64,000 nt of DNA from Lytechinus pictus. Lineage: Eukaryota. This document shows positions 30,971 to 62,715 of the stretch, in pieces (within the stretch, counting starts at the first letter, position 1; every line of letters starts with the position of its first letter). The notes beneath the pieces are model-generated. The model was not told the DNA's origin. It saw nothing but the letters and a program-made list of their open reading frames with translations, and did no database searches. Made by a program: the position numbers and the translations under genes. The DNA is taken from contig NC_087245.1 of assembly GCF_037042905.1 (NCBI RefSeq), forward strand, positions 5,706,001 to 5,770,000, in the 5' to 3' direction.

Positions 30971-31756
30971 AAAGTGTTTTTTAACGTGGCAAATAAAAGG
31001 TACAATTTAAAAAGTCCGCATGTATACTAAGCTATCATTGTACACACGCCACGCAATCAGCCAGTACATAAAAACACACAATAGTCACCACTTGTAGGTT
31101 CATACACACAAATACAAACCCCACACACCCATGGCGCACACATTCACCTTAAACATTGATAGTCAATCACTACATTAAAGGGCCCTAAATGCTGGGGCGG
31201 ATCCAGGATTTTCCAGAAGGGGGCCATTTTTGTAAAGGAAAAATTTGACAAGCAAAAAAAAATAGGCCTCACTATAACACATGCATGACATATTTCCCTA
31301 ATTTTTTTTTGCTGGTATCTCAGGGGGGGGGGGCAAGGGCCGGATGTGCCCCTACCTGGATCTGCCAGTGCCTCAATGGTACACGTTCTGGTTCCGGTAG
31401 CTTCCTCAACACTTGTCTTCTTACATTTTGTCATATTTGAAGACTTTTGATTTGTTGAGAAACTTAGTTCCTATGGCTATGCTAACAGTGAGATTATTCA
31501 GATAAATTGTAAATTACTAGATAAGACACCAGAAACTGTAGTCTGCTTATGAAACACTCCCTCGACGTATCTTAAAAAGATTTATCTTCGAATCTCGATT
31601 AATAAACCAAGTATTTGAGTTCAAATATAATATACATGTATATATGACATTCATGACACTGCATGGAAAATAAAGAAAATTTCGATTAGTGAACACTCCA
31701 TTTTTAAACTAACCCTGCAGCCAACGTTAATCACGCTGTTTTCCTCACATTTACAG

Positions 31757-42099: not shown

Positions 42100-44670
42100 A
42101 GAGATAGGGGCACCCATAGATGAGGAGTGGGGTATTACATAATTATCTGAAAATACTTCCTACGTGAGAAGAAAATATCTTGAACCTGTAACATTAAAAA
42201 TATTGGTGCTCGAATTGCTGCGTGCTGATAGCAGCTCACTGTTCGTTCGTATATTGTTTAGGAAATCTGATAGTCACTTAGAATTCTTTGAGAGTTTAGA
42301 ACAAGATCTCGAGAAAGTATTTGCAAAGTCATGCAATGATAGTATAATTGAGGATTTTAACTGTTACATGTTAACTGATAATAATCTGTCAAATAAGTAA
42401 AAGAAAATATCTATGTATGGCCGTGCAGATGACACAGGTTATATCTGAACCCACGAGAGTTACACCTAACAGTCAATCACTTATTGATTTAATTTGCATT
42501 TCTGACTCACTTAGTAAAAGTGTCATAAAATCAGGAGTACAAATAACAGGTTTAAGTGATCACTATGTAATATTTCTTGTAATTAAAGGTAAATATCAAC
42601 CTCTTTCTCCAAAGACAAGCAAATTTCGCTCGTTCAAACATTTTGATTTTGACACATTTTAAGAAGATATGAGCAATTGACTGGAAAGAATTTCATTCAT
42701 CTGGTCAGGATGTAGAAAAAACATGGAGGTTGTTTTAAAAATACTCTGATGGAAATTTGTGATAGACATGCCCCATTCACATCAGTGCGTCTTAAGCAAG
42801 GAGTTGTACCATGGATTAATGAAGACTATCTGAATCTAGCACAAGAAAGGGATTACTGTCGAAAACAATTAAAAAAAGATCAAATTAATATCTTGGTGGC
42901 AAAAATTTAAGCATTGTCGAAATGGAGCAAACAATATTATTTGAATAAGCTTTTGAAAAAGAATTAATATCAGAATGAATTTCAAAACTGTGTTAATATT
43001 CAAAAGAATTGGAGAGTTATTTCAAGACTTATACCAAACAAAAATAAGAAAGAAAATAATGATATCAAACTTACAATGGGAAATGAACAGATACCTACCA
43101 AACAAATAGCCAATGTTTAAAACAAAGCCTTTAATGACGTAGGACTGAGATTACAGACTCCTTTGGATAATACATCAGTTGATGCATAAAGTAGTTTACA
43201 AACATTATCTTTACTCGAATGTGAATCTAAATTCAATGAAATAAAAAAAGATTATAGAATACTTGAATGAAAACAAACTTCTAACGAATTTCCAGTCAAG
43301 TTTTAGACTTTGCATTCTACTACTACATGTCTAACAAAAATTACATAATATTTTTTTGATAAAATGGATCAGCGGCGAATGAACTAAGGTATTTTCCTCG
43401 ATTTACGTAAATCGTTTGATGTTATACCATACAATTTCATTCTTGGAAAACTGAAGTATTGGAAATTAATGGTATCAAATGTGATTCAATGAAATCATAT
43501 TTAACAGACAGGTGACAGTTTGTCGTAATAAATAATTGTATTAGTGAAAGTGCAAAAATTAGATCAGGCGTCCAATAGGAATCCATATTGGGTCCATTGA
43601 TATTTTGCATTCTAAAATGTGTCTTTATGCAGATGATACTGCTCTGTTCTGTCATGATATGGAAGTTCAAAAACACATGACAAGTGATTTTGATGTTATC
43701 TGTATATGGCTCAACTTTAACGGTATGCATTTGCATCCAAAAAAGACAAAAGTCATGGCATTTAGTCATAGGAAAAGATTGAAAAATTATGCTTTAATGA
43801 TAAAATTTGGAAATGATTCCATAGAAAATGTAAATTTATGATCAAATACTTGGGTGTAACACTTGACTCTGGCATGACAATATCTCGCACGATAGGTTGT
43901 ATAAAGAGAATCAAACAATTCCTCCCGCCTAGGATTCTTAAGAATTTATACTTTGCCATGATTTTACCTTACATTCGATTATTGTTGTACATCTTGGGGA
44001 AGCTGTGCAAAAACCAAAAAATTAAAGTACAATAACTGCAGAATAAGTATGCCCGAATAGTTTTGAATAATGGACTATTTTACTCCCCAACATGAATTGT
44101 TGTCTACACTCAAATGGCAAACAGTGGAGGAAGGTATCAAATATCAATTTTGTGTTCTTGCTTTCAAAATACAAAACGATTTAGCCCCAGCCTATCTGGG
44201 ACCACTTATCTGCAAACGTATGATGTAACTTATAAAACACGATATTCCGAACAATGTCCCCTTTAAACACCCTGCCCTAGGACGAATTATAAAAGAAAAT
44301 CTTTTGAATATGTTGCTGCCGTCGTATTTTATTCTCTCTCTTGTGATATACAAAAATGCACGTCCCTCCATGCATTAAAAAACCCACTGTAAATCATTGA
44401 AATTCTGACGGTCATACATGTAATTGCACTGAATACCTTGATGTAAATGTAATGATTCCATGAGTAATTGTTGATTTCACTCTATATGTATTTAATGTAT
44501 TCGGTTAATACTTTATTATGTGTTACATAATTATATACATTGAATTGCTATGATTTTGAGTTATTTGTTAAACTGCAGGGCGCCTTAGTAAAGCAGTTTT
44601 GCCAAATGAACAGGCCTACCCTGCAGCATAAAATAAAGAAAACAATAAATGAATAAATAAATCAATAAAA
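42100..44670 (+). mobile_element. Decayed CR1/L2-group LINE ORF2 and 3' tail
   Basis: EDFNC, EPTRVT..SQSLIDLI, GLSDHY, PWIN, FLDLRKSFD, GSILGPL, LYADDTAL, IKYLGVTLD; tail GCAGGGCGCC...CCCTGC with (AATA)n. Confidence 0.9.
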
Positions 44671-44695
44671 GTTGGTTCGGATACAATATATATAT

Positions 44696-44733
<38 letters not shown>

Positions 44734-44737
<4 letters not shown>

Positions 44738-45088
44738 CAATGGTAGGCGTAGCTTTAATCAAGGTTCCCCAGAGCTATCTACCCTTTGGAAAAATTGGTG
44801 ATGCCGAAAAAATGTCTCTGACAGATTTTCGACACTATACCAATTACCACCCGACAAAGGAAATTATAATTGGTATAGTGTCGAAAATCTGTCTATCTGA
44901 CGGTCAATCGGATCGGGGTCGCCCTAGCCACTAACCCGTCTCTGTGGTCTAGTGGTTAAGGCACCGGCGTTCAAAGCTGGGGGCCCGGGTTCGATTCCCG
45001 GCAGAGACATTTTTTCGGCATCACCAATTTTTCCAAAGGGTAGATAGCTCTGGGGAACATTGATTTAAGCTACGCCTACCATTGTTCT
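44734..45088. repeat. Palindromic (foldback) element carrying a tRNA-like gene, embedded in (TA)n
   Basis: 87-bp arms 44734-44820 / 45002-45088 (2 mismatches); inner perfect 27-bp arms 44820-44846 / 44867-44893. Confidence 0.9.
44938..45009 (+). tRNA. tRNA-like gene, 72 nt class I cloverleaf, anticodon TCA (opal suppressor-like; functionality unknown)
   Basis: Acceptor GTCTCTG/CAGAGAC, D arm GTCT/AGGC, anticodon arm CCGGC/GCTGG with loop GT-TCA-AA, variable GGGC, T arm CCGGG-TTCGATT-CCCGG, followed by T6. Confidence 0.7.
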
Positions 45089-45154
45089 CTTCATCCATTT
45101 CTTTACAATATTTAAATAAAAGAGTTGCCAAAGCTGTTGTACATGTATAACTTT

Positions 45155-45218
<64 letters not shown>

Positions 45219-45221
<3 letters not shown>

Positions 45222-45757
45222 TGGCGTAACTACGGGGGGCATGGGGGCACGTGCCCCTCCCCCCTCCATCAGCTGGCAAAAATAAGGGTAAAAGAATAAA
45301 AAGAGGGAGAAAAAAAAGAAAAACGTAGTGGGGGATGAAGAAATTATTGTATATTATATTATACTATGTTATATTATTATATACTATGTTATAATATATT
45401 TATTACATTATATTATATTACTTAGGAAATATTTTTCATAAATTTATGAAACATAATTTTCTTAGGGCCTATGTGTTCATCATTCCCGGTGCTCGCATTG
45501 TCTGTTTAATTCCTGTTGTACTAAAACATCCCGTTTTCAAGTTAATATCCACCAAAATAGGCCTATATTTCCAGTGATCATTGTTTTATGTAGTGGCATA
45601 ACATTATGCTTCTTTTTCATGATTACCTAAAGTGATTGCCCCCTTTTAAGGTCTGCACTTACGTTCGCGTTAGTGGATTGGTGAGATATGTTAGCTCTTC
45701 ATAAATTCCTAAAAAACATTCTTAAAATGTCCCTTTTTCTAGTCTGAATATCGAAAA
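45219..45757 (-). mobile_element. Partial inverted copy of the right end of the 37541-40227 hAT family
   Basis: Starts CAGTGGCGTAACTACGGGGGG, the reverse complement of the 40227 end, and stays collinear with ~39730-40227. Confidence 0.85.
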
Positions 45758-45862
45758 TTATATATATATATATATATATACATACTAAGACATCAGAAAT
45801 GCGAAACAAATTCACGAGTAATGCAGTTTTTGAAGTGCCAACAATTAAGTTCTTTTATTCAC

Positions 45863-45907
45863 TCTCCCAATTTTCGGTATATAGACATCTACCTTCTTCA
45901 GGGAAGA
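45863..45907 (-). ncRNA. Minimal type I hammerhead ribozyme-like motif in a probable Penelope-like pseudo-LTR remnant (~45780-45910)
   Basis: Minus strand TCTTCC-CTGAAGA-A-GGTA(GATGTCTATA)TACC-GAAA-ATT-GGGAGA, followed by AATAAA; flanked by (TA)n and TACA repeats. Confidence 0.55.
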
Positions 45908-46860
45908 TACATACTTATATACATACGAATACATACGAAATTTAGCGGGAGAAAAATATTTTGAGGCTTTCCTAATTCTTGGTTTATATATTTTGGTTAA
46001 ATGCTCGAGAACTCATATCTTACTACAATTTATTTGCCAGATTACACTTGTCAAGTAAAAATAAGCAAAGAAAGGGTTATAATTAGAAATTCATTTCCCC
46101 CTGGTGCGCTTATTTGACGACACCATACTGACATCTATCGATCGATCGAGCGCTGACGCGCGCGACGTATGACGTGGTCACGTGACATGCATAGATCTAG
46201 TCCGATATGATCTAGTCTGATCGATCTGCACGGTGCGGTTGCACATGTATGACGCGCGCTGTATGTATACAGATCATGTACAAGATACAGACTGTATACA
46301 CCGGCCTTATTGACGGTCGAGCGCCGTCGCGTCGTCGTGTCGAGCAATAAACAACGTAACTTAGTAATAGTAGGTGAGTAAACTCTTAAGAATTAGATCT
46401 ACGCCTACGGTAGTACCAGTACCGTTTGTATACCGTATTTAATATTAAACATTATTAAAATTGATTGTTTGTACTCTATAGACCATCGCATCGGTGCTTC
46501 TGCCCAAAAAAGTGGATTTTTTCTAGTTTTCGCGGCGATGTTCGTGGATTTTGAAAACATGTCTTTGCGAAAAAAGGGCACTTTCGTGAGCCGAAGACGA
46601 AGTCGGCAGCCATATTTCCCGGAAATCGAAGCCAATGCTAGGATCGAAAAGATGATAAAAAACATGAAAACTACGACAATAAATAACGCCTCAAAATGTA
46701 GCTGTAGTGTAGCGCCCTAAGACTTCGCCGTTGCGTGAACGCTCGCTATTTTCACTACCGCCTTACCGGTACCGTAGCCGTAGGCGTAATGTACCGTACC
46801 GTACTCATGCGTTTGCAATTAACTGCGCACTTTCTATCTTAGCATCGTTAGCTTAGCCGG

Positions 46861-49800
46861 TGTAGCGGCGGATTTGGTTCCACCGGCGGATACCGTATCC
46901 GCCGGCAGATATCGTTCTAAATGGCCGATATCGTTTTTGATCGGTACCATATCCGCCGGGTTTGACGCGGCTTGATGTTTGCAGATTTGGTTCCTCGGCG
47001 GATTTGGTTCTATTGATTATACGTGTAATATTGATTTGGACAGACAACCTCGGCAGCGCGCGCATGCGCAGCTCGGCAATGTCGATCGCAATGCATGGGG
47101 GGGGGGGGATTTTCGTCCGCCTTTAGTGAATTTTTATTCAGGGGCGGATCCATACAGCTTTTGACAAAGGGCTCGATGGGGGTGAGGATTAATAGGAGTA
47201 ATAATGTCTCGATATGTATTACGTAGACCTAGCTGACACATACGCAAAACTATGCTATTTATTATTATAAGATTTTGATGAAATTTTCATCATTTTGTTT
47301 TGTGAATTTTTATACTATTTTCAGGGACTCGATTTTAAGGCGCGCGAGAGCGATCGCGCGCTACATGCGCGCCTTAATCCATTTTTGGTAGCGCGATTAA
47401 TAGCGCGCCTCGCGATAGCTGATGACCTGCGCGAAAATGCCTAAAGTCGCCCTCGAAATCACCCAAAATCATGCTTTCGGGAACAACATAAAATCTGAAT
47501 GTCGCCCCCGAAATTATTGCCGAGTGATAACAACTCAACGGCCCACTAGTGCCATATGCTCGAGCTCCGCTTACCATTTAAAAACCATCCAAAATCCACA
47601 CTCAAAATCACGAATAAGCCTTAAAAGTAGCGAGTAGCGCAGTTTCAAATTCCGAAGTTGCGTTATTTTTTCTGTACCACGTATTTCCATACACATGGTA
47701 TACCAGGTATGGAAAAAAAAAATCAACGCAACGGTCGGGAAAGAGTTGCATGTCTAGGGGTCCATTATGACTACCACCGTGTGCCATTTCGAATGCACAT
47801 GTTTCCCCTACAGATATCACAATTCTGTGATAAAATAATTCGAATTACACAGGAAATAAATCCCAGAGTCTAGTAACCTAGCATTGGTGAGTTGTCATTC
47901 GGCTTTGCTTTTCAAAACGGCTTATTAACTTCCAAAATAAGTTAGGGCCTATCTAATTTATCAATTATAACTAAAAAATCATTTGTTTTCTTTTTCTAGG
48001 GGATGAGGTATTATATCAGACAATAAATCATCAAACAAAGCTCCATCTTTTTTACAAGGACGGCGGCAGGCTCACGCATTGGCGCTTTTACTAGCTAGCC
48101 AGTTGGAGCTCTGTCTCTCTGCCAGAGCTCTGGGGGACAATTCGCTCAGTAAAGGCCTCAATGATGGTGATTTTCTGTTTCAGACAGAGTTTACATTTCA
48201 GGAATATTATTCAAAACTGCCAATAAAGTTTGATGATTTCTTCATTGTCATGTATATTTAAGTTCTTAATGAATACATTCTCACCAAATTTAGACTCCCC
48301 CATAGAGAAATTAAATTTTCATGGAGATCTGCGTTTTCAAAGAACTTCAGGAAAAGTTAGGGTTTGTGGGCCTTTATTACATGTACATGGCTGACTAGGG
48401 TATTGTACTGGAATAAATGGAGTAGAAATTAGATATTGAATTCATTTATATCCAAGTCCAACTCACAGTCACACACACACTCACAAACCCACACACACCC
48501 ACCCATCCACACACACCCACATCCAAGATTCTAAACATGATAAATAACTTTAAAAATCATACAATATTAAACAAAAAATAATAATTCCTTAATAAGTGAA
48601 CAGGTATTCCTCAAAATACAAAAAAGTAGCATTTAAAAAGAGCCCCCGAAATTTGACAAAAAAATTAAAATGGAGCCCCCGAAAAAAAAAAAAAAATTGT
48701 CAGTGACTTAACTTTTAGCCAAAGTCAAAACCTAACTAAAACAGGTTTTACAACACACAATGTAATTACAATACATTGTAAAACAATTATAAATACTTCC
48801 TTTGGTTGTTGATTGTAATTTTATAGTACATACATTTCCTCCATCCATTTTGTTAATTGGGCAAAAAGCTCCCCTTGTATGTTGAAGAAGAGCTTTTTGA
48901 AGTGCTCCTCTACCGCTCTCCTTAAAAGTTCTAGGAGAGCTTTTTATTGCTCCCCTTATAATTATAAAACCGAGTCCCTGTATTTTCAGTCCGCAGTATG
49001 CATCGATCTCTTTAACTGTGCTTTTTCACACCATGTTTAGTGTCAGTTTGCCAGACTGTTTGGCGAAAATTTGCACCCCCATATAGGCCTATAGGTTTTT
49101 GAAACTACAAATTTTTAGAAAAATTTCAACAAGTTAAAATTTTCATATTTAAAATAAATGATTCAAATTAGTGTATGAAAATATTTTTTTTGCTGTTAAC
49201 TCATATTATTGCCTGTAGAATGCTAATTTTTGGTGAAAACATAAATTTTTTATTTCTAACAAACATAAAAAAGGAATGTCAGAACATGATTAATTTCTTA
49301 TGTAGTTTATTGAAGGCCTATTTTTAAATTTTCATGTATTTTTTTAAATTTGTTTTTTTCATTCTTTTTTTTCAATGTTAAGGAATCTGAATTAATTTAT
49401 TTGATTTGATTTGATTTATTGTTTTTTTCTGCATCCATGGAACATTCGTATAATACATTTTCCATAACATAATAAACATGATATTATGTTAGCATTTTTG
49501 GCATGAATCATAAATAAAGTGTACTAAAAAAATTATTCCAGACAAAAATGATTAACTACCAAATTATTATAGGCCCTATGATATTCACAATTTGCAGGAG
49601 AAGGATTGTCATCATAAGCAGTTTGCTTGTTCATGACAATCCCAAACTAAAACTAATTAAATTAATTTATGCATTAATAAAGCAGAATGGGCATATATTT
49701 TTAAATACGAAACATCAATTCATGCAATATTTTTAGTATGAAGATGAAGATGATAAAGGTGAGGGTGACGGTGATATGATGATGATGATGATTGAAGGGG

Positions 49801-51056
49801 ACCGGATCAGATCACCCTGACAAAAGTTAGATACGCCACGTACTGTTTGGTGCTCCCTAATTTACCTCTCAGTCATCTAATTTTAAGATCAATATGGGAT
49901 CTTTAGTGAAATATAATTTCTCCTTTACATCTTTTGTTTCTTTTACTTTACCCCCTCCTGGTTTTCATCTCTTTATTTTCTTTGCCTTTCTTTCTGTCCC
50001 TGCTCATTTCGCCCCTTTTGCCTCTTTTCCAGTTTCCTATATCGTTCTTGCACATTATGAATATATCTGGGGCGTATACGCGTGGGTAATATAGCACCAA
50101 AAAGGAGAAATAGAAAGAGGAAGGGGAGGGAGAGAAAAATAGAAAAAATATACGAGAAAATGTGGAGGAAATAATAGTAATACATTGGAATTTCGTAATT
50201 CAAGAATTTCATTTGCAGTGATCATTATTTATACAAATTTATACAAATACTGATTTTAATTATCGAAACTGCCATTGTTTGTCTTTATTTAATACTCTGT
50301 ATTAATCATAATTGATGCATATTGTGCCCAATTTATCCCCAAAATTGTGATAAGAAGGACTTTTCATACTGCAATAAATTAATAGGTATAAAATAAATTA
50401 ACAAATGCATGTTATTATTTAGACTACAAGCATTATCATATCATGGGGTAAATTCTTTGTATACTAGTAGTGCAGTAGACATTGAAAGTTGAATGAAGAC
50501 TAAATGTGGACTATTTAAAGACCCAGACCATACCCCAAAAGTTGACAAATCAGTCAAATCGAAAGCTATTAATTCAAACTAAAAACAGAAATGCAAGTTT
50601 TATGCAGTCATCGTTTACAGCTGAATATTTTGCTTAAGAATAACTCCAATTATCGGGTTTCGAAAATATACTTTCTTGTAAATATGCTTTCACCGGCCTC
50701 GCACCGAGACCGTGACGTCATGTAGTGTTAGAAGTGGTGTAATTCCCGTAGAGTTGTAACAAGAAAATGGGTTATTTTCCCCTTTCAGATTACGCATTTT
50801 ATTTCTTCACTTCTATCACATAGAGATATCATAAATATATTTTTCTGCAAGCTTTAATTGATGAAATCTACCGCTTTTGACTAGTTTTCTCGTACCACGT
50901 GACGTATGTGAATGAAGGATATCGCGATAGCGCAAGAACGATATCTTCCGAAGAGAGTGGCCTTTCTTGGTACTGAATCCGCCGGAGTAGAACACGATCC
51001 GCCGGCGGATTTTGTGCTTAGAACAGTATCTGCCAGGCGCAGGATCCGCCGGTACA
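46861..51056. mobile_element. Non-autonomous Ginger1-type DNA transposon (TGT...ACA, CCGG target duplication) with nested insertions
   Basis: CCGG|TGTAGCGGCGGAT...ATCCGCCGGTACA|CCGG (12/13 TIR match); subterminal CGGCGGAT and GATATCGTTCT motifs at both ends. Confidence 0.7.
47322..48980. mobile_element. CAG...CTG TIR element (hAT- or P-like) nested in the Ginger-type element
   Basis: TIR CAGGGACTCGATTTTA / TAAAACCGAGTCCCTG; TATTTT on both flanks; no coding capacity seen. Confidence 0.65.
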
Positions 51057-52375
51057 CCGGCCTTAGGCTTAGCGCGCCGTTTAAAATAGTCAACAAAAAG
51101 TTAGACTAACGACTAACGTTAGAGGTGAATTTCAGCTGCCTAGCCCTAGCCCTAATCTCACGGAGCTCGCGGGAGGAATTCTTTTTACAAGTCATGATAT
51201 GTCCTATGGATTAAAATAGAGGTCTAGTTTGTGCAAAATAGTTTAACAGCCTAGGCTACAGGATGGGAATAACCGAAAGCGGCCGCACACCGGTGACCAG
51301 GGTGCAACTAGATCTATTATAAAATAGCTGTATTATTTCAAGCATCGCGATTGGTCAATACGCGTCACATGACATCCAACTTTTTTTGTGCAATGCACGG
51401 TAGTGCAAAAGGTGTGCAACGAAAATTGACATTGCACGCTCGAGCAAACCAGTGCGGTAGAAGTCCAACAAAACTGTACTGTAACTTTAAAAAAAATTGT
51501 TTCTGTGTTGCTATTTTATAAAACAAATAATGCACTTGCTCTGTCGTGCGTAAAAGTAAATGCAGAGAAAGCTCGGTTTCTTCAGATGGAGCACACTGGG
51601 CACTCGCCGCAAGCGGCTCGTGCACAGTGCGACTCCTATCTAAAGAAACCTCGCGTGCTCTGCATTTCCACTAACGCACTCGGCTGCATGCATTATTTGT
51701 ATACTATACCCAGTTGTTGTGTGTCCGGACAGGTTGTGTGTCCAGACGAACAATTTTTGAAAGTAGGTCCTAATTTGGAAGAATTTACAAGTTAAGTTTC
51801 CATCAATTTTTAGTACAAAATGTTAGGAAATATTAATTATTATAGAGAACAAAATAGAAGATGATTACAACTATTGAATTCATATTTGCGTGTGTAATCC
51901 AAAGACAAAAAAGAAGGCTTCAAAAATATGAAGTGTCCGGACACCCGACCCCCCATCCTACTACTAGTACTCATCTAGACCCTAGTCTAATTAGATATCT
52001 AACGTTAGACTAGGTCTATAATTAATTAGTCTATATATAGGGCCTAACGTCTTAGGCGTGGCTGGCGCTGCGCTGGAACGACATGCATCGCTTAGATCGA
52101 TCCTAGGCTAGATCTAACGTTAGATCTATTACGGTTAGATTCTAATTTACTTTTGTTACTTTGTTAGGCCTAGCCCAAGCCTAGGCTAGATCTAACGTTA
52201 AGGGTTTAATCTAGCCATAGCCTTTATTTAGGCCTCCTAGACCTAGGTCTAGACTTATAAACTAAAAACATTGCCCTAGTCCATGTCCTAGAATAGATCT
52301 AGACTATAGGATATGGCGCCCTAGCCTTTACTCTTTAGGCCGAGATCTAGACGCTACCTTGATTCTAGGACTAGG

Positions 52376-52576
52376 CAGGGGCCGCGGAACGGTTTTCAAA
52401 GTGGGGGGCTGAGCCAAAAGTGGGGGGGGGGGGCTGACCATGCAAAAAAATCACAATCCTAGGCTATGGTCATTTTTATGTTTTTGTAGGACCTAGGGTA
52501 ACGCGCCCGGCCCCTACACGGTTTTGGAAAAAAAGTGGGGGGCTGAAGCCCCCCTCCCCCGCTTCCGTGGACCCTG
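52376..52576. mobile_element. Small poly-G MITE, sister of 25887-26036, carrying extra micro-insertions
   Basis: CAGGGGCCGCGGAACGGTTTTCAAAGTGG...TTCCGTGGACCCTG. Confidence 0.8.
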
Positions 52577-53127
52577 GATTCATCAATGAATCTTTGCCAA
52601 TATCAAGATTTTTTCTTTTTTTAAAGTATGAAGATGCTCACGAGGAATTATTTTACTAGCCACACAAGTATCAGAACTTGTGGGAATACATTAATCAATT
52701 GCTACATTTAGAATTTCCGAAAACTTGGTCCACTCTGTAGCCTACGTCAATACAAACATTGTCCTGATCATGAGAAATCTCATCTAGATCTCTAGACTCT
52801 AAATCTAGATTTAGATCTAACAGTCTAATTTCGGTCTAGACTCCTCTAGTCCTGATTGGGCAACCTCCTCGACTAGTTCAAGTCTTTTTTAACTTTTGCA
52901 GTGACTCCATTTGATTATTTTTCTATTTAGGTCTAGATCTAGTTTATCATCTAGATTTCTAGGCCTATGTAAAACTAAAATCAATGCCCAATTCGTGTTT
53001 GTATTAGGTCTACTAGACCTTGATCTAGAGTCTATTTGGAAATATAAATCATGTAAATTTGTACCTTTTGTCGAATGTAATTAATAAATTTTGAATTCGT
53101 CCAGATACTATTTTATATAGTCAGAGT

Positions 53128-54265
53128 CATGGCCCTGGGATGCGGGGGTGCTTCAGCATTCCCAAGGTTTACCTGGGGGTGCTGCGTGTATCATTCTAAT
53201 GCCCCACCCCTTTCTTTCTGCTTGTCAAAAATGGCCTTCATTTTTTAGTGAAAGTTTTTTTTTAAATAATTTTTGCTTGTCAAATTTACATCACCCCAGT
53301 TAAACTATTGTTCCCAGGGCCCTTCCAAACACCCGAACATGTATCCCCCCTCTAATCCTGTATAGGGATGGCACAACCTTGTCATAGGAAACATCAGCTT
53401 ATGATAGATTCTGAGCTGAAGATCCAGTGACTAAATAGATGTTTCTTTATTCGGATCGAATATTTTCCCGAAGGCATAATGCATAATGCTACCTCAAGGG
53501 CCTGTTGCAGAAAGATTTGCGTTTCAATACAACTAAAAATCAATTACAAGTCACTAACCGTGTATCATATTGGTATAAGTAAAGTTTTTATGACTTTTGA
53601 TGGTAAGTCTAGCTTTTTGCAACGGGCCCGAGCAATACCGAAAATACCGAAGAGGTCACGTGCCTCGAATTTTCAACAATAAGGAGAAAAGAGCGAGGTT
53701 GGTGTGTAAGGTAAGGGCCACGCCCATTTTCTTCTCCATGTTTCTCACTGGTTTAATTTACCATTTTCATTTTTTAATGTTTTTATTTTTCGATAGGGGG
53801 GGGGGTTGACATTTCCTTGATATCCCTACATGTAGACACGCCACCCTTCCGCACTCTAGTGCTTGTAGAATCATTTGGTGTCATGTGAATCATACACCCT
53901 AAGATTTACTATGCACCATGGAGTTGGAACGTGGCACTAAATAGGCCGGCCGAGTCATGAAATATCCATTGGAAAGTGCTATAATACGACAGTGGTGTTG
54001 ACCTAACACCGTGAATTAATTCTACAGCGTGTCCCAAGAAAATTTTAATGGCAATCTAGGTGGTATAATATTAGAATTACAACAATATATTGCTTATATT
54101 CTTCCTACGCCCGTAAACTACAATTCATGATTGTTAGATCTATTTAAGCATGTTAAGTGATGCAAATTATATTCATTCACGTTCAGCCATGGGCATAAAT
54201 CAGCAAGGATTTCCCCCTTTTCAGGACTTGGGGATGACCTATTAATTCGACCCTGTGATTATTAA
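53128..54265 (+). repeat. Copy 2 of the diverged local duplication (copy 1 at 2822-4155)
   Basis: Collinear with copy 1, including the same three MITE insertions at the same positions. Confidence 0.9.
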
Positions 54266-54645
54266 GAATTGTTTGTAAGAGCAATTACAATCATGTATTT
54301 AGTTATTTCCTCTTTAAATATATTCATAGCATATAATGATTAAGAATATTCCAGAATGTCTCAGTAAAGCTTCTTTAGGCATGCCCATTTCTAAGGGACT
54401 TCAAAGTCGATGGTGATATGAATGAATGATATGAAAAGTTGCGCAATCAAGAAAATTATGCCTCTCTTAGACCTAACGAATTCACCAAATGAGTTTAAAT
54501 TCGATATCGCATCAAACTTCATCAAACTTTCAAGATATGTAACTAAGTAGATACCAAAGTAGAAGAATATCTTTTAATTGGCAAACTATATCTAAGTGGA
54601 GTTAGCAGCGCCCTCATTTGACAAGAATATTGCATAAACTTCCAA

Positions 54646-54967
54646 CGAGGCGTTGTGGCGTGCGCCTGTAATCCAAGCTGTTGGGAAATTACAAATTGAT
54701 GCAGAGGTTCGAGCCCTGGGGCCTGTTACGTTGCAGAAAGAGTTGCTTTTAAGCGCAAGTCAAAATATCAAGCGTAAGTCCCGAATGCGGGTGCTTCATT
54801 GGCTGAAAATCAAGTTGCGCAAGATTTTTTGAGTTGCGTTTGATTGCAACTCTTTCTGCAACGGGCCCCTGGTCACGTCTTTTTGATGGTGACGTTAAAG
54901 GTCGGTCCCAGACGTAAATAACCGTATCTGATTGATACGCGTCTGACAAAACTCAAATACACACACA
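54646..54967 (+). mobile_element. Candidate 7SL-derived SINE (~170 bp once the inserted MITE is removed)
   Basis: Head GGCGTTGTGGCGTGCGCCTGTAATCCAAGCT resembles the 7SL/Alu 5' domain; B-box-like GGTTCGAGCCC; (CA)n tail; TTCCAA on both flanks. Confidence 0.7.
54719..54868. mobile_element. Harbinger-type MITE inserted in the candidate SINE, CTG target duplication
   Basis: CTG|GGGCC...GTTGCAGAAAGAGTTGC...GCAACTCTTTCTGCAACGGGCCC|CTG. Confidence 0.8.
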
Positions 54968-56135
54968 TTCCAAAAAACAAATTTTCAAAAGACGTGAATC
55001 TATTCGAAAATCTAAAAAAGTAGATTTTAAGCTGCACTTTATTCAAAATCCATGTCATTTTCATCAAATTCGGCATAATTGTAGATGAATATATTCTGAG
55101 GACATTAAAACATTAAAAATATTGGGTCCATGTGCTCGTTTTTGAAATATCAGTGTCTAAACTGTTACGAGTTGGTTTGAAACAGCCCATAATGCGCGGA
55201 AAACGTGCAAAAGTCTGATAATACCATCCACAATGTCTTTTTGTCTTTTATTAGAACAAATGTGCTTATCTAATACACCCCAAAACGCGCCAAAAGCTTT
55301 GTATCTATGTGAGGAAAAATTCCAAACCACTCTACCATTTATTCAAACTCGTGGTTATATTCGTCATACTTTGCAGCCCTACAGAGTAAAGTATTTTTTA
55401 AAATTGTAGAGGTATCTAAAAATGGTCCACGGAATAATTCCAGTTTATTAGCTTCATAAGGATCTGCAGTTACTGCAGATAAGGAGAAAAAATCAGCTCA
55501 TACCTACAGCTGATTAATAACCTGTTCATCCATTGTGACGTCAGCGCGCAGAGTGTAAAATATGCGCAGATCATGATGCACACAAACTGGAACGTCCTTA
55601 AAGACAATACTAGAAGCTTCCAGAATAGTGGAAATTTATATAAGCTGGCAGTTTCTTCATAATATCAGATCAGAACTCAGAGGTTCACACCAGACTTTAT
55701 GTCAGAGTATTGTTTATTTCCAACTGGAATACAACATTTATCTTCTGTGGAATTATTTACACGCTATCAATGAACTGTTTGCAGTTACTTTGAAGGGAAA
55801 TTCTCAGTTCTCATCGAGATCATCAACCTGTTTTAATGTAGCTTTTCAACCCATGGATTGCTGGAATTGACTGTTAATCATCATCAACATCGTCTTCACA
55901 GACATTTCAACTTGTTACAGTGACTCTTGTGATTCATCATGTTTCAACATCAATTTCGTCATCGCCAGCATTCATCATCATCATCATCATCAGTGTACGG
56001 AAGAAGAAGGCAAGCCTGTCGAGACTTCCGGTCGTTCCTTCTGATAGTACTTGTTCCAACTTGACTATTTTAAATGTCTTGTAAAATTACATGCATGCAT
56101 GTTGCGTGGAGGGTGGACGATTCTTTTTATTTTTT

Positions 56136-58943
56136 TTAGGGAAGAATTTGATGATGGCAAGACCAATGTTTGTCCAGCCTATGTTTGAAAGAGTCAATAG
56201 AGGGTGCCGACACAACAGATGGAGGAAGATTATTCCATAGGTCTACAACCCTCTGACTAAAACTGTTCCTCCTTAAAGTGGTATAAGACCTCTGTTTAAA
56301 CAATTTTAGATGATGTCCTCTTGTTGTGTCTTGAATGGCAGGGATGAAATATACAGAAGAGTCAACATTAACAAGTCCATTCAAAATCTTAAATACCTCG
56401 ATCATGTCTCCTCTTTGTCTTCTGTAGTGTAGTGAGTACATTCCAAGGCTTACAAGTCTATCCTGGTATGGTAAATGTCGCAATTCTGGAATTAGCTTTG
56501 TAGCTCTTCTCTGTACCTTTTCGATTTTAACAGCATCCTCCTTGAACCTTGGATGCCACACTACATTTCCATATTCCAAAATAGGACGTACTAATGTCTT
56601 GAACAAGGTTGGCAATGTTGTACTTGAGATGACAGTAAAAGTTCTTTTGATTAGTCCAAGCATCTGATTGGCTCTATTCACGATATGTGCTACATGTAAG
56701 TGGAATTTCAGCTCCTCATCAATCATGACTCCAAGATCCTTTTCTACAACAGATACTTGTAAAATCTGGTTGTTTATACTGTATGTTGTTCTAGTATTAA
56801 CTCTTCCAATATGCATGGTTTTGCATTTAGCCTGGTTGAAGGAGAGTTGCCAGGATTGGGCCCATAAGGTTGCTGCGTCCAAGTCATCCTGTAGCGAGGT
56901 TTGCTGGTTTACAGAGACATCACCATATATCTTAGTGTCATCAGCATAGATTTGAATGTCATTACTAATCACATTTGGGAGGTCATTTACATATAAGACA
57001 AAGAGTTGAGGTCCGAGAATACTCCCTTGAGGCACGCCACTAATCACAGGGGTCCATTGGGAGAAATCCCCACGAATCGACACTCTCTGTACACGTCCTA
57101 CTAGAAAGGCTTTGATCCACTCAAAAACTCTGTGCTCGATGCCATATGCTTGTACTTTATTAAGTAGTCGCTGATGAGGTACAGTATCAAAGGCCTTGCT
57201 AACATCAAGATATATTACATCTACAGGTCTCCCTTTATCCATAAGATATGTCCAGTCCTCCATTTGTCTCATAAGTTGCGAAATACATGACCTTCCAGAG
57301 GTAAATCCATGCTGGGCATTGTGTAACAATTTATTACTGTCAATATGGTCTATTAAAACATTGCGTATAATGGCCTCCATGACTTTGCCTATTACTGAAG
57401 TTAAACTTATGGGCCTGTAGTTACCAGCAAGCTGCCGAGACCCCTTCTTATGTACTGGGGTTACATTTGCCATCTTCCACTCCACTGGTAAGACTCCTTC
57501 GTTTAGAGATCTTTGAAAGATGATCGCTAGTGGGAGACTTATCTCACATGATAACTCCTTAAAAACTCTTGGATGGAAATTATCAGGTCCGGCAGACTTA
57601 TTTACATTCAATTTCTTTAATTGCTCTTCCACCATTTCTTGTGTAATGTTGGTATTTCTCAAGGAAGGTCCATCAAATTGTTTATCAGGTTTAGGTAAAC
57701 TACTCAGGTCTTCCTTTGTAAAAACTTTGGAGAATGTTGTATTAAAAACTTCAGCAATATCAGTATTTGTGGTCACTTTCTCACCATTCTCCGTCACCAG
57801 TACATCAACCCCTCTTCTTGTCTTCACTTTGGAGTTAACATAACGCCAGAAGTCCTTGGAGTTATCTTTAATAGAAAAAGTGAGGTTCTCTTCAAAGTCA
57901 GTACTAAGAGTTCTTGTCAGTTTTCTGAGAGAATTACTGACATCACGGTAATATTGAAAATCCTCCTGGTTGAGCGTTGACTTGTAACGTTTCCAAGCTC
58001 TGAGCTTTTTTTTACTCAATGCAACAGATTCTCTCGTCGAGTATACTTTCTTCTTTCCACTAGACATGGCTTTACCAACTGGAACATATTGTTTAATACC
58101 ACTATGCAAGTACGTAGAAAAGGTATGCCAAGATTCTAAACAGCTCGTATCTGATAAGCAATCTTCCCAATCTACATTAGCCATCATTAGTCTCATATCG
58201 TTATAGTTTCCTTTGTTAAACAAAAGTGATGAAGATTGTGTAAGATCAGAAGTGAATGACTCATAATCTGCTTCAAAATACAGGCAACAATGGTCACTGC
58301 GCCCAAGGGGTGAACCATAGCTAATGTCAGATATCAGTTCAGGTTTGTTTGTTATGACAAGGTCAAGAATGTTACAGTTTTGTGAAAGTCTGTAACGAGT
58401 TGGCTCATAAACCAGTTGGTGGAGAAACAGATCCTGTAAGCAGTTAAGAAAAGAGATAGCTGAAGCATTACGTTGGTTATTTACCACATGACAGTCCATC
58501 CAGTTTATCTCAGGATAATTGAAGTCTCCAACAATGATTAATGAGTGTGGTGATGAGATAGCTCTGAGTTGCTCTAGGTCACGTAGAAGACAATCATTGT
58601 TTTCCTTTGTACTAGAAGGACTTCTGTAAACACATATAACGATAACCTTTTCACCACTACTCAGCTCCAGATTGCAAGCAATTATTTCCTTAAAGCTAAA
58701 GCGGAAACCAAGCTCAGTCACTTTGATATCAAGTTTCACATAAACAGCAATTCCTCTGATTTTCTCCAAGTCCAAGTTTGAGATGAGAGTATATCCTGGG
58801 ATTGCAATCGAAGGATCTTGAAGTCTGAATCTGCTATACTTAGGAGTCACTTCAGTCAACAAAATAATATCCAAATTTTGTTGTTCAACTATCATTCTCA
58901 AATCATTGTATTTATTAATCAAGGAGTCACAGTTCGTATACAT
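56136..58943 (-). CDS. CR1 ORF2: APE-like endonuclease + reverse transcriptase, 935 aa uninterrupted
   Basis: YTNCDSL, LTE, VYRSP, VGDFNYP, SDH (EN); KSAGPDNFHP, NYRPISLTS, QHGF, YLDVSKAFD, GVPQGSILGP, YADD (RT); CR1-type C-terminus TRGH..KL, FSQRVVDLWNNLP. Confidence 0.97.
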   Translation of the reverse strand: MYTNCDSLINKYNDLRMIVEQQNLDIILLTEVTPKYSRFRLQDPSIAIPGYTLISNLDLEKIRGIAVYVKLDIKVTELGFRFSFKEIIACNLELSSGEKVIVICVYRSPSSTKENNDCLLRDLEQLRAISSPHSLIIVGDFNYPEINWMDCHVVNNQRNASAISFLNCLQDLFLHQLVYEPTRYRLSQNCNILDLVITNKPELISDISYGSPLGRSDHCCLYFEADYESFTSDLTQSSSLLFNKGNYNDMRLMMANVDWEDCLSDTSCLESWHTFSTYLHSGIKQYVPVGKAMSSGKKKVYSTRESVALSKKKLRAWKRYKSTLNQEDFQYYRDVSNSLRKLTRTLSTDFEENLTFSIKDNSKDFWRYVNSKVKTRRGVDVLVTENGEKVTTNTDIAEVFNTTFSKVFTKEDLSSLPKPDKQFDGPSLRNTNITQEMVEEQLKKLNVNKSAGPDNFHPRVFKELSCEISLPLAIIFQRSLNEGVLPVEWKMANVTPVHKKGSRQLAGNYRPISLTSVIGKVMEAIIRNVLIDHIDSNKLLHNAQHGFTSGRSCISQLMRQMEDWTYLMDKGRPVDVIYLDVSKAFDTVPHQRLLNKVQAYGIEHRVFEWIKAFLVGRVQRVSIRGDFSQWTPVISGVPQGSILGPQLFVLYVNDLPNVISNDIQIYADDTKIYGDVSVNQQTSLQDDLDAATLWAQSWQLSFNQAKCKTMHIGRVNTRTTYSINNQILQVSVVEKDLGVMIDEELKFHLHVAHIVNRANQMLGLIKRTFTVISSTTLPTLFKTLVRPILEYGNVVWHPRFKEDAVKIEKVQRRATKLIPELRHLPYQDRLVSLGMYSLHYRRQRGDMIEVFKILNGLVNVDSSVYFIPAIQDTTRGHHLKLFKQRSYTTLRRNSFSQRVVDLWNNLPPSVVSAPSIDSFKHRLDKHWSCHHQILP

Positions 58944-59072
58944 AATTTTCAGTTTTCTCCTATACCTAGTGCTATTTACAACTTCTCCTGTATGTTCTTT
59001 ATTATTAAGTTTTTTTCCTTGTCCATTACTATCTATTCCTCCAATGTCGTCATCTGGGATTAACTGTGGACG

Positions 59073-60033
59073 TCATTGTTGTTGAGAAGACTTTGTGTTT
59101 CTGTCTTCACTTTTTTCGTCCACACATGTAGCACCTGAAGACTCCAATTCGCAAGGTAGCTTTGGCGCCCGCAAGATGTCCTCCTTTGTTTGTGCAGGCT
59201 CGGCTTCATTTTGGACATCAGTGTCTTGTGATGGTAAGATGTTATCTTGGCTATCATGCAGTGGTAAGGTTGGGTCCTTTGACTTTACCGGCTTCTTGGG
59301 CACCTGTCCATTCATTAGATCCGACAGACTGATGTCATATGCATTTCCATATTTCTTTTTGTCTTTCAATGTAACAATCTTTCCATGGCGGATTGCGATG
59401 TTTTCTTCTCCTTCAGCCCTTCTTTGATGTAATTCTGACATCAGTTGTTTTCTCTGTTTTCTCTGGTTTGGAGTGAGGTCAGGTGCAATATAAGTACCAA
59501 TGCATTCTATTTTTCTCCACAGTAAATATCTCATACACTCTGAGAGACATCTTTTGGCAATCCAAACATGACCAGCTTTCACAGGCTTCACATTCGATCA
59601 TGTGTTTTATGTTCACTTTATTACAGTAATTACATACAAATTTGTCTTCACACTCACCCAGCTTCTCCTTTATCTTCCGTTGATCTGTTTTAACGTTAGT
59701 ACTTGCCTTCTTTGACTTGTTCAGTTTCTTTGCTTTAGCAACTTGCGATGCTGTCGCAGAATCTGGTATGGAGTTACCTTCATCATCAGCAAGAATAACT
59801 CGTCGAGTGGTTCCAGCGTAATCTCTGCTTGAGTTGCTTGTGTTAGCCCGGGTAGTACTAGCCTCGGTTAGAGGCTCATGATCTGGTTCTGAATCCTGAG
59901 AGGACTTAGCGTCGGTTATTTCAACGCTTTTTTTATTTTCCTCTTTCTTTCCAAATGGTGAAATTTTATTCAATTTTTGTTGGATTTTGCTAATTTTACT
60001 TTGATCTTGTGGATCAGCTTTATCTTTGGCCAT
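59073..60033 (-). pseudogene. CR1 ORF1, frameshifted at ~59495 (PHD finger joined out of frame to the C-terminal domain)
   Basis: Frame A: MAKDK...CNYC...IECEACESWSCLDC...MHWY then stop; frame B: YIAPDLTPNQRKQRKQLMSELHQRRAEGEENIAIRHGKIV. Confidence 0.8.
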
Positions 60034-60629
60034 GATGATATATCTTGACGGCTGGAGATCAAAACGGAAGTTGTATATCTTCCCCCGAAGTCTCGGCGAG
60101 CTGTCAAGGCTGGGTCCGGTCTCCGGCCGCGCCGGCGACGATCGCGTCAGTGCAGTGCACTCACAATAGCTGAAAACAATTTGGCGCGAAAATTGAAGTT
60201 GAATCCCAAGAATCAATCGCCCAAAACTGGTGCAATCCAATGATTGTTAGTCGAAATTTCAGATCAGTATAATATCCAGTGGCAATACTTCGAACATGTC
60301 ACTTGAAAATCCTGAAAAATCACGATTTTTATCCTATATTTGTTATTGTAATCAGAGAGAATCAGAAAACACGTCCACCCGTCACGTCACGTCACGCACC
60401 AGTCATTGTGGGCATTAATTTAAGGAACCTTTGCCAGCCAACTTGGCTATATAAATTATTTGGATTATACATTTGTGGACTAATCAGAACTGACACTTCA
60501 AGAGATGTAAGATTATTATTTTTGTTTTGTTTAGTGTATGATTGATCTATTTCCTGTAATAAAAAAAAGGAAATCAAATTTAAAACTAAATTTTAATTGT
60601 TATTTGTTGCAGTATCATAACAAATAATT

Positions 60630-60778: not shown

Positions 60779-62715
60779 ATGGCTACATTTGATGTTAACG
60801 AGTTTCTTGCAATGACAGAATTGTCAGATGATAATTTGAAGTCACTGAAAAAAAGCAATTTGACAACACTTTGTGATCATTTGGGTGTATCTCTAGCCCC
60901 AGCTTTAAAGAAGGCAGAGATAACTGACTTGTTAGCTAGTCACATGAAGCTTACAGAGGAGTCTGAAACTTCTGTCATGTTTTCAAATGATGCTCAGATT
61001 AAACTGGCAAAATTTGAAATGGAAAATCATCAAAAGAAAATCATTTTCTCTTTCTCGACATTCTCTTTGATTTTTGTTTCCATTTCAAATTTTGCCAGTT
61101 GAATCTGAGCATCATTTGAAAACATGACAGAAGTTTCAGACTCCTCTGTAAGCTTCATGTGACTAGCTAACAAGTAAAATCAAAGAAAACCTTGAGAAGG
61201 AAAGAATCAGAGAAACATTGAAATTGAGAAAATGAGATGGAGTAATAGTTAAATTTGAAAGAAATTGAGTTAGCTCATGCAAATACTAACTCTGCTAAAT
61301 ATAAATCTCCACAAGACATTGATGTGGCGAAGGACATTCGCCTTCTGCCAAAATGTGATGAAGAGGGAGTTGATACATATTTTGTGTCATTTGAAAAAGT
61401 GGCCAAGAGACTGAATTGGCCTGAGGAATACTGGACTGTTCTCCAAAGTGTTTATGTTGGAAAGGCTGCAAAAGTCTATTCTTCGCCTTCTGAAATGCAG
61501 TCATGTGACTATGCTACAGTAAAATAAATAATTCTCAATGCATATTAGTTGGTACCAGAAGCGTACAGACATAAATTTAAGAACATGCAAAGACAATCAG
61601 GCCAGCCTTATGTTGAATTTGCTAGAGAACAAGAAATGATGTTCGATAAGTTGTACATCACTGAAAGTTGACAAAGATTTGGTTCACCTTAGGAAAGTTG
61701 TGCTCCTAGAAGAATTAAAAAAAGTCTTTTGGCATTAAATCTCACTTAGATGACCATATAGTTACTGAAGTCAGTAAAGCAGCCATAGTAACTGATGAAT
61801 TTGAGGTTACACATAAAGGTAGTGGAGATAGGCCTCCTTTCAAGAATTATTGGAGGAAGAAAGGTAAAGGGTCATTTGAATCCCACAATAAACATGGTGA
61901 GGGAAATATGCTAGCAAGGACAAAGACAACAACAAGAATTAGCCTCGTGGGCACACAGAATCAACCAAAAGGTCCGAGGGTCGAAATTCCAAAATTTGTA
62001 CTCATTGTCATAAATTGGGACATTAAAAAAAATAATGTTGGAAATTGGTTGGAATGCCAACCAAATTTAAGAAAGACATGGGTTTTGTCAACCAAACAAG
62101 TGTTCCCTCGATGGAGTTTGTCCCATCAGAGCCCATTCGATGTTGAGAGTATTTCTCTGTTTTTTTGCTGATAAAGTCAAACAGGTTGATGAAAGCTTTA
62201 GAAGCTTCTTGTATGATGGTGAGGTATCCCCTTGTTCGGCTGGTGCTGCTGGTAGGTCGGTGGTGGTCGTTAGGGATACAGGGGCTGCACAGTCCCTGAT
62301 GGTGCCAGGGGATTTGGCTCTCCCTCAGGAGAGTTCAGAGAATGCCAAAGTCTTAATTCAAGATATTGGCCCAAATTTCATGTCGGTTCCTTTGCATAAG
62401 GTCGACTTAAAATTGTGACCTAGTTAGTGGTCCTGTGACTGTTGGTGTCGTTCCAGAATTACCCATGGAAGGGGTTGATTTCTTGTTAGGTAACGACTTG
62501 GCTGGAGATGGTCTAGTGGTTTCGGAGAAGCCGGTTGAGGTAGCTGAAACTTAATTGTTGCAGGAAGATTTTCCAGCGATTTTCCCGGACTGTGTTGTCA
62601 CTAGGTCTCAGACTCGTAGAGCTGAAAATGATGATGCGGATTCTGCTTATGTAGAGGAGAGTACTGATGTCTGGTTAGCTGAAACCTTTTTCAAGGATTT
62701 AAATGGGGATAATGT
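60779..62715 (+). mobile_element. Decayed Gypsy (Gmr1-like) gag and protease; RT/IN and 3' LTR absent
   Basis: Capsid-like IRLLPKCDEEGVDTYFVSFEKVAKRLNWP, LVPEAYRHKF; zinc knuckle remnant CTHCHKLGH..CW; protease RDTGAAQSL; FLLGNDLAG; many stops and frameshifts. Confidence 0.9.

What the first reader, a model, noticed from the sequence alone, without database searches (positions are those of the whole stretch)
51960..53040. Hotspot of TA-duplicating micro-insertions (TAGGCCTA/TAGATCTA/CTAG-rich DNA), shown by comparing repeat copies
Seen: this kilobase is saturated with short palindromes (TCTAGA, AGATCT, AGGCCT, TAACGTTA). The MITE inside it (52376-52576) differs from its sister (25887-26036) by two insertions at TA sites, each with the TA duplicated: TA-GGC-TA at 52460-52466 and TA-GGACCTAGGGTAACGCGCCCGGCCCC-TA at 52487-52516. 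Independently, 45558-45565 has TA-GGCC-TA where the sister at ~39955 has plain TA. Isolated TAGGCCTA and TACATGTA recur across the window. Known: TA-targeting cut-and-paste transposons leave TA-few bases-TA footprints. Inference: repeated insertion and excision at an accessible site is rewriting the local sequence, so the motif density may record germline open chromatin.
Basis: partly seen in the sequence, partly recalled or inferred. Interest (0 to 1): 0.7.

Follow-up and report, generated by a model that had tools for sequence, protein, structure and literature searches.

The report
Transposon-scar hotspot beside a CpG island
About one kilobase of this animal DNA holds some 60 times more tiny TA-flanked insertions than its surroundings, most likely scars left where jumping genes landed and left again; that it marks an open germline promoter is plausible but not shown.

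Summary
Outside the MITE, 51960-53040 holds 30 TA-[G..C or ACGT]-TA words in 880 nt, against 31 in 55,400 nt elsewhere; no shuffle reaches this. Other copies of the MITE family in four sequencing runs lack the 5-nt insert, and listed joints in three runs skip the 28-nt one, so these are gains at TA. A further TA-GGGCC-TA (47943) is plain TA in a near-identical contig.

The words fall into two classes: CATG and CAG/CTG cores are dispersed; GATC, GGTC, GGC, GAC and ACGT cores are clustered. With four intervening repeats subtracted, 37 clustered words lie 20-1211 nt behind a candidate splice donor of the window's strongest CpG island.

Best reading: stacked excision scars of TA-targeting DNA transposons, plus some local duplication. 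No source element for the G..C or ACGT cores was found. Open chromatin is untested: the RNA run shows almost no reads at the island, and CpG is depleted in half the patch.

This scan already reported TA scars in this genome (TACATGTA), another invertebrate (TAGGCCTA) and diatom promoters. New here: the clustered class, its empty-site evidence and its position.

The parts
51960..52375 (.). Core of the hotspot: 22 TA-[G..C/ACGT]-TA words (53 per kb; 35% of TA sites)
52577..53040 (.). Right part of the hotspot: 8 words (17 per kb); CpG o/e 0.44
51063..51316 (.). Left part of the hotspot, between two repeats: 6 words (24 per kb)
52376..52576 (.). High-copy MITE (CAG..CTG ends) that serves as the internal control; its sister at 25887-26036 has a 5-bp TSD (hAT5-like, inferred)
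52460..52466 (.). TA-GGC-TA: 5-nt gain at TA, absent from many family copies
   Evidence: table 4, 78
52487..52516 (.). 28-nt gain at TA; parses as stacked TA-bounded pieces (cores of 5, 3 and 14 nt) or as a 5-nt core plus a 19-nt GGG..CCC remnant
   Evidence: tables 5 and 5c, 78; local templating not significant
52102..52200 (+). 21-nt direct repeat (52102 and 52180): local duplication of a chain of words
   Evidence: longer than in all 500 segment permutations, max 19
47943..47951 (.). TA-GGGCC-TA, plain TA in other copies, including a near-identical X6 contig (47744-48010, 4 other letters, 7 gaps)
   Evidence: tables 4 and 8
45558..45565 (.). TA-GGCC-TA against plain TA in the 39.9k sister (two copies only, so polarity is inferred)
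45599..45606 (.).
45901..46855 (+). CpG island (o/e 1.7, the highest segment tested) with an E-box-like CACGTG at 46179 and a candidate donor AG|GTGAGT at 46373/46374; candidate promoter and first exon, not shown to be transcribed
   Evidence: X23 depth 0-0.15 over 45900-46561; motif labels recalled
46402..46786 (.). TA-flanked element with short imperfect CGCC..GGCG inverted ends; its arms hold part of the local CCG/CGG cluster
   Evidence: I23
46856..51062 (.). ~4.2-kb element with 17/18 inverted ends, TTA on both sides, a GGCC right terminus and clustered ATCCGCCG subterminal motifs; PIF/Harbinger-like by TSD (inferred); splits the hot zone
   Evidence: I24; the unique X1 contig ends 30 nt inside its left end; no Pfam transposase
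51317..51959 (.). High-copy repeats inserted in the hot zone (limits approximate); 1 word only
   Evidence: tables 2 and 8

Best explanation
The patch is a local pile-up of excision scars of TA-targeting cut-and-paste DNA transposons. (1, shown) Short fixed cores are added at TA with the TA duplicated and the flanks kept. (2, shown) The rate is far higher here than elsewhere, even inside a MITE that sits within the patch. (3, inferred from Tc1/mariner chemistry) Each word is what remains when an element inserts at TA, excises with a staggered cut inside its own ends, and the break is end-joined: 2+2 nt from both ends gives the palindromes GGCC, GATC and ACGT, and 3-5 nt gives GGC, GAC and GGGCC. 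(4, shown arithmetically) Each scar adds a TA, and neighbouring G..C cores spell CTAG, which explains most of the CTAG, TCTAGA and AGATCT excess. (5, shown once) Local duplication copies some chains. (6, inferred, about 45%) G-ended and AC-ended families prefer this stretch because it is the start of a first intron behind a CpG-island promoter that is or was open in the germline, whereas the CA-ended families land anywhere.
For: Empty sites at 52460, 52487 and 47943 in reads or contigs of 3-4 runs, and at 45558 and 45599 in a paralogue. At 45558 and 47943 the core is not present within 30 nt of either flank. TA-TA spacing in the patch is in excess only at a 4-nt core (27 vs 13.1, 0 of 200), matching the +4 Tc1 scar (PMC13148408, passage) and the 2-4 terminal nt rule (PMC6943129, passage). 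Intact TA|CAG..CTG|TA elements at 3769-4640 and 9278-10091 can account for the dispersed CATG and CAG/CTG class. TA-duplicating elements with GG ends exist among PHIS transposons, though in fungi (PMC12730594, passages and 2 supplement rows). 37 words fall at +20 to +1211 from the candidate donor, and the next two at +2320 and +2653. One of 15 metagenome hits (L009) carries the same chain about 240-275 nt upstream of a LINE ORF1-like frame.
Against: No element with TA|GG, TA|GA or TA|AC termini was found in 64 kb, and no filled allele was seen. Cores are more varied than one family would give, so at least three end types are needed. Chaining is no more than density predicts (18 vs 15.0, 417 of 2000), so there is no sign of scars attracting scars. 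TA-GGG-TA at 48396 differs from other copies by lacking 2 nt, so not every such word is a gain. The C. elegans germline repairs Tc1 breaks mostly by HR or TMEJ rather than clean end-joining (PMC13148408, passages). Against step 6: X23 depth is about 0 at the island; CpG is depleted in 52376-53040; the LINE at 56.1-60.1k has no such chain in its 5' leader; and the +20 to +1211 figure depends on four element limits that I inferred.
Confidence: 0.6

Rival explanations
1. A non-transposon cut-and-repair process, such as an unknown TA-cutting nuclease with fill-in or templated end-joining, writes short palindromic cores at TA. A break-prone site then amplifies its own words by local copying.
For: No source element for the G..C or ACGT cores. 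The 21-nt repeat exceeds all 500 permutations. Four different self-complementary cores occur. The 28-nt insert shares 8 nt with the inverted MITE terminus nearby.
Against: That 8-nt match is not significant (312 of 2000 shuffles). The cores at 45558 and 47943 are absent from their flanks. The dispersed class matches the ends of intact TA-flanked elements in the window.
Confidence: 0.2
2. The words are transcription-factor sites, multiplied by tandem duplication at bound germline sites and kept by selection as a homotypic cluster.
For: The patch lies beside a CpG island. Short insertions duplicate motifs at human spermatogonial binding sites (PMC8559717, abstract and section 7). TACATGTA is bound by PsMyb37 in Phytophthora (PMC11134190, passages).
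Against: The verified gains arise at plain TA with no neighbouring motif to duplicate. Core length varies from 3 to 5 nt and core sequence varies, while the TA borders stay fixed. Gains also occur inside transposon copies.
Confidence: 0.1
3. The scars are real, but the hotspot comes from local hopping around resident elements (for example the 4.2-kb element with a GGCC terminus) or from the age of the spacer DNA, not from a promoter.
For: The words begin right at the element's right end (51063), and its terminus reads GGCC. Younger inserted repeats carry few words (1.2-1.6 per kb). There is no RNA at the island.
Against: That element is flanked by TTA, while the verified sites duplicate TA outside any TWA context (52460, 52487, 45558). 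The MITE gained 2 inserts at its 4 TA sites, so age alone does not explain the rate. Other resident elements in the window have no such halo (0.53 words per kb over 1-45200).
Confidence: 0.1

Closest known systems
Tc1/mariner excision footprints (Sleeping Beauty TA-CAG/CTG-TA, PMC6943129; Tc1 +4 scar, PMC13148408; Minos six-bp footprint, PMC3386967; all seen as passages)
   Same: TA duplicated, a 2-4 nt fixed core, flanks unchanged; the CAG/CTG and CATG words of the window are of this type.
   Different: The clustered cores start with G or AC, some are 5 nt long, and they are stacked at up to 53 per kb in natural germline DNA; the source element is unknown.
Repeated Stowaway insertion and excision at one TA in a Triticeae beta-amylase intron (PMC1925063, passages)
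   Same: Serial gains and losses at a TA in an intron, and a new insertion beside an older footprint.
   Different: One site across species, against dozens of sites over about 1.2 kb of one haplotype.
PHIS superfamily: PHISTA (TA TSD, consensus starting with GG; PMC12730594) and ISL2EU (AT TSD, GG ends; PMC4482050)
   Same: GG termini; PHISTA also duplicates TA, so it would leave GG..CC cores.
   Different: PHISTA is described from rust fungi only, ISL2EU duplicates AT rather than TA, and I saw no footprint description for either in the passages read.
Motif-duplicating short insertions at spermatogonial binding sites (Kaiser et al. 2021, PMC8559717)
   Same: Germline chromatin state leaves a local excess of short insertions that clusters words.
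   Different: Those are tandem duplications of the bound motif; here non-templated cores are added at TA.
Excision-associated mutation near grass genes (Wicker et al. 2016, PMC5023962, abstract)
   Same: DNA transposon traffic near genes rewrites regulatory DNA.
   Different: It concerns substitutions flanking excisions, not stacks of fixed scars.

Membership tests
Tc1/mariner-type excision footprint | TA present on both sides of the gain; empty site has one TA; flanks kept | tested here: met
   Clean at 52487, 47943 and 45599; one extra change beside 52460 and beside 45558
Tc1/mariner-type excision footprint | Core of 2-4 nt | tested here: met
   4-nt spacing in excess, 27 vs 13.1; G..C cores of 3 and 4 nt in excess, with a 5-nt minority (6 vs 1.5)
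Tc1/mariner-type excision footprint | Core equals the termini of a TA-flanked element in the genome | tested here: inconclusive
Tc1/mariner-type excision footprint | Filled allele (element at the same TA) in another haplotype or species | not testable with these tools
   No listed piece spans the patch and the tables were capped
Tc1/mariner-type excision footprint | Cognate DDE transposase | tested here: inconclusive
   No transposase family in six frames of 44001-57501 or in 26 chosen ORFs; the rest of the window was not scanned in six frames
PIF/Harbinger (TWA TSD) or ISL2EU (AT TSD) footprint | Duplicated unit is TTA/TAA or AT | tested here: not met
   The empty sites at 52460, 52487 and 45558 have no TWA, and the gain lengths fit core plus TA (TSDs from PMC4482050)
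Flank-hairpin footprints (hAT, Transib/RAG; recalled) | Insert is an inverted copy of the flank | tested here: not met
   Cores are absent from both strands of the +-30 nt flanks at 45558 and 47943
Motif-duplicating insertions at germline binding sites | Insert duplicates an adjacent motif | tested here: not met
   Not so at the verified sites; one non-adjacent 21-nt repeat exists
Open-chromatin, promoter-proximal target | Active transcription start or accessibility peak next to the patch | tested here: inconclusive
   CpG island and candidate donor present; X23 depth 0-0.15 there with about 6% of the run read; no run on record as an accessibility library

The most novel reading that the evidence does not exclude
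An undescribed group of TA-targeting transposons with G or AC ends homes to the first ~1.2 kb behind germline-active promoters. It has cycled there so often that it wrote most of the CTAG-rich DNA at first-intron starts. Scar density by core class would then be a fossil map of germline accessibility and of each family's targeting, readable from an assembly alone and shared across distant eukaryotes.
Probability: 0.3. Interest if true: 0.8.

Novelty: new variant of a known kind. Interest (0 to 1): 0.5.

Why it matters
Excisions of cut-and-paste elements are usually invisible. If these words are their scars, they count past transposition site by site and family by family. The split into a dispersed and a clustered class makes target preference testable without finding the transposase first. 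If the clusters track germline promoters, palindromes that motif-finders would call factor sites (as TACATGTA is in Phytophthora) may often be mutational in origin, which bears on how regulatory DNA turns over in invertebrates.

Tried and rejected
(1) Whole-genome counts: no genome is held. (2) More MITE copies in metagenomes: 0 hits. A 17-nt chain gave 15 loci, 14 of them isolated chance-like matches. (3) Run search: no RNA holder listed, and best share of words 0.37. Depth ratios of X1 to X11 were looked at as a hint of an enrichment library and dropped, because the library is not on record, the species differ and the tool warns against this use. (4) My first idea, that the CpG-rich block at 50.9-51.06k is the host promoter, was dropped: it is the right end of a multi-copy 4.2-kb element, so the + strand RNA at 51018 (51 of 52 first mates on the minus strand) may come from any copy. 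(5) The CCG/CGG cluster at 46.4-46.9k (6 of 9 in the window) was not counted as scars, since it lies in or beside the inverted arms of two elements. (6) Positive feedback between scars: not supported. (7) Local templating of the 28-nt insert: not significant. (8) A 5-bp TSD of the patch MITE displaced by 10 nt: the 5-mer occurs in 26 of 395 local 20-nt windows, so this is weak. (9) CpG decay as the cause of clustering could explain only ACGT cores (decayed forms: 8 copies, none in 46-53k), not GATC, GGTC or GGC. (10) Literature: exact-word searches found only oomycete or unrelated uses; topic searches listed no paper on such scar clusters in echinoderms. The library lacks most subscription papers and Repbase Reports, and I read only passages of PMC13317027, not its motif supplements. 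(11) Possible decayed coding frames at 48.0-48.4k and 55.6-56.1k remain unidentified.

Full report
Setting. The window is repeat-rich animal DNA (about 36% GC) with LINE fragments, many MITEs, one tRNA and one long sulfotransferase-like frame. Earlier notes of this scan call the genome a sea urchin; I did not test that.

CTAG occurs 30 times in 52001-53000 and 0-8 times in every other kilobase. In the 880 nt of the patch outside the MITE, CTAG (33 vs 10.3), TA-GnnC-TA (14 vs 1.4), TA-GnC-TA (7 vs 1.3), TA-GnnnC-TA (6 vs 1.5) and TAACGTTA (3 vs 0.0) exceed all 200 dinucleotide shuffles. Among TA-TA spacings of 2-7 nt only the 4-nt one is in excess. There are 30 such words in 880 nt against 31 in 55,400 nt elsewhere, about 60-fold.

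The inserts are gains. Laying runs at 80% likeness brought in other copies of the MITE family. The 5 nt at 52459-52464 are left out in 8-9 contigs of X1, 29-37 of X11, the one of X6, and 18 of 60 and 27 of 52 reads of X23, giving the sister's sequence. Joints from 52448-52458 to 52515 skip the 28-nt insert in X1, X23 and X11, and the letters X11 shows between them end in a plain T-rich run before the TA. The same table gave an unplanned case: TA-GGGCC-TA at 47943 is plain TA in all four runs (13 of 17 X23 reads), including an X6 contig with 4 other letters in 267 nt, so the process is recent. TATA at 47699 is TA in most X1, X23 and X6 copies. Of the 12 indel rows shown (of 238), these account for 4. 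The other 8 are not scars of this kind, and one (48396) shows a TA-GGG-TA that lacks 2 nt relative to other copies. No listed piece spans the patch, so the inserted alleles themselves were not confirmed by reads. Across 27 paralogue pairs in the window (11,790 nt, 903 TA sites) the filter listed 16 TA-bounded differences. Nine lie in an AT-rich satellite. The rest are 52460, 52487, 45599 (core ACAT), 3761, 30716, 54095 and a tandem-repeat case at 63862; only the two in the patch MITE have G..C cores. That MITE has 4 TA sites in the sister, and 2 were hit.

Two classes of word. In 51060-53040 (3% of the window) lie 7 of 10 TAGATCTA, 4 of 5 TAACGTTA, 5 of 11 GGTC/GACC, 5 of 6 GGC/GCC and 5 of 11 GAC/GTC words. 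By contrast it holds 0 of 13 TACATGTA, 1 of 17 CAG/CTG and 2 of 9 TAGGCCTA (the interval was chosen after seeing the data). Intact TA|CAG..CTG|TA elements exist at 3769-4640 and 9278-10091, and TA|CC..GG|TA pairs at 11439-14174 and 33405-34358. None was found with TA|GG, TA|GA or TA|AC ends.

Anatomy of the surroundings. The CpG-rich blocks at 46.86-47.0k and 50.9-51.06k are the inverted ends of one 4.2-kb element: 17 of 18 nt match, TTA stands on both sides, all 9 ATCCGCCG words of the window lie in these ends, and the unique X1 contig stops 30 nt inside the left end. By its TSD it is PIF/Harbinger-like (PMC4482050, passages); no transposase was found. Left of it lies the strongest CpG island (45901-46855, o/e 1.7) with a candidate donor at 46373/46374. 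Subtracting this element, a TA-flanked 385-nt element, the repeats at 51317-51959 and the MITE puts 37 words at +20 to +1211 from that donor; the next are at +2320 and +2653, one lies at -182, and 8 lie inside the elements. The gains at 45558 and 45599 lie 300-350 nt upstream of the island. This reconstruction rests on my element limits, and the distal limit of the third element is approximate. One metagenome locus of 15 (L009) has the same chain about 240-275 nt before a 527-aa frame that precedes a LINE-type endonuclease. The LINE at 56.1-60.1k in this window has no chain in its leader. RNA run X23 (about 6% read) has depth 0-0.15 over 45900-46561. CpG o/e falls to 0.55 in the MITE and 0.44 to its right, and the patch MITE shows 2 CpG transitions against 0 in the sister (small numbers). 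So a promoter-proximal position is plausible, but present-day activity or openness is not shown.

Mechanism. Tc1/mariner excision leaves the first or last 2-4 nt of the element between two TAs (PMC6943129, passage). The typical somatic Tc1 scar is +4 (PMC13148408, passage), and Minos leaves six bp (PMC3386967, passage). Self-complementary 4-nt cores are what 2+2 nt from two matching ends would give (inference). Adjacent G..C cores spell CTAG: 33 observed against 27.7 from independent left and right contexts. The cores at 45558 and 47943 are not in their flanks, which argues against tandem duplication and flank-hairpin repair. Chaining does not exceed what density predicts (417 of 2000), but a 21-nt repeat does exceed all 500 permutations, so local copying has contributed at least once. 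Candidate makers of G..C cores are G-ended Tc1/mariner families or PHIS elements with TA duplication. Such elements are described in rust fungi with consensus sequences starting with GG (PMC12730594, passages and 2 supplement rows); a TA-duplicating animal group named IS4EU is my recollection only (PMC3673617 passages gave no TSD). In C. elegans the germline repairs such breaks mainly by HR or TMEJ (PMC13148408), so clean heritable scars would imply different repair here.

Comparison and novelty. Footprints as such are known, and repeated insertion and excision at one intronic TA is described in Triticeae (PMC1925063, passages). Germline chromatin shaping insertion clusters is described in human (PMC8559717, abstract and section 7), and excision-linked mutation near genes in grasses (PMC5023962, abstract). 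Ten searches of the held library listed no description of dense scar clusters in echinoderms; subscription papers, Repbase Reports and unread supplements could hold one. This scan has noted TA scars before: 39 findings in at least 9 genomes for one word search, TACATGTA several times in this genome, TAGGCCTA in another invertebrate, and chained cores upstream of diatom genes. These are unchecked AI notes and not independent support. Searches for a clustered CTAG or TAGATCTA class returned none.

Verdict. A real, recent and strongly local TA-duplicating insertion process; excision scars are the best explanation (0.6); the open-promoter link is open (about 0.45). New variant of a known kind, interest 0.5.

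Noticed in passing
window 46856-51062: A 4.2-kb element with TTA on both sides, 17/18 inverted ends and ATCCGCCG subterminal motifs found nowhere else in the window; about 7-11 related contigs per run at its ends; high-copy repeats nested inside.
   Followed up: partly
window 44734-45088: An 87-nt inverted repeat (98%) around a tRNA (44938-45009), set between two TA microsatellites; earlier scan notes describe a similar tRNA-bearing repeat.
   Followed up: no
window 31731-32798: A 356-aa single open frame with a Sulfotransfer_2 match (E 6e-06), the only host-like coding frame identified.
   Followed up: no
window 56139-60100 (minus): A LINE with endonuclease and reverse transcriptase in a 978-aa open frame and a broken ORF1 region upstream.
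   Followed up: partly
window 60927-61175: A 99-nt inverted repeat at 99% with 51 nt between the arms, inside a decayed stretch (60.7-62.8k) that looks retroelement-like by recall; no Pfam match.
   Followed up: no
window 11439-14174 and 33405-34358: TA-flanked inverted-end pairs with CC..GG termini (2.7 kb and 0.95 kb), candidate makers of CCGG or CCC/GGG cores.
   Followed up: no
window 25887-26036: The sister MITE has CAG..CTG ends and a 5-bp TSD, which fits hAT5-type elements.
   Followed up: partly
window 55640-56086 (minus): An acidic, stop-interrupted frame that may be decayed coding sequence; no Pfam match.
   Followed up: partly
L009:133-167: A chain of GGCC, GATC and ACGT words between TAs, upstream of a LINE ORF1-like frame in animal-like DNA from a metagenome.
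   Followed up: partly
window 54713-54867: Other copies of this repeat skip 153 nt here (923 X23 reads, 117 starts; also in X1 and X11 contigs), so the window copy carries an insert with inverted arms at 54729-54863.
   Followed up: no
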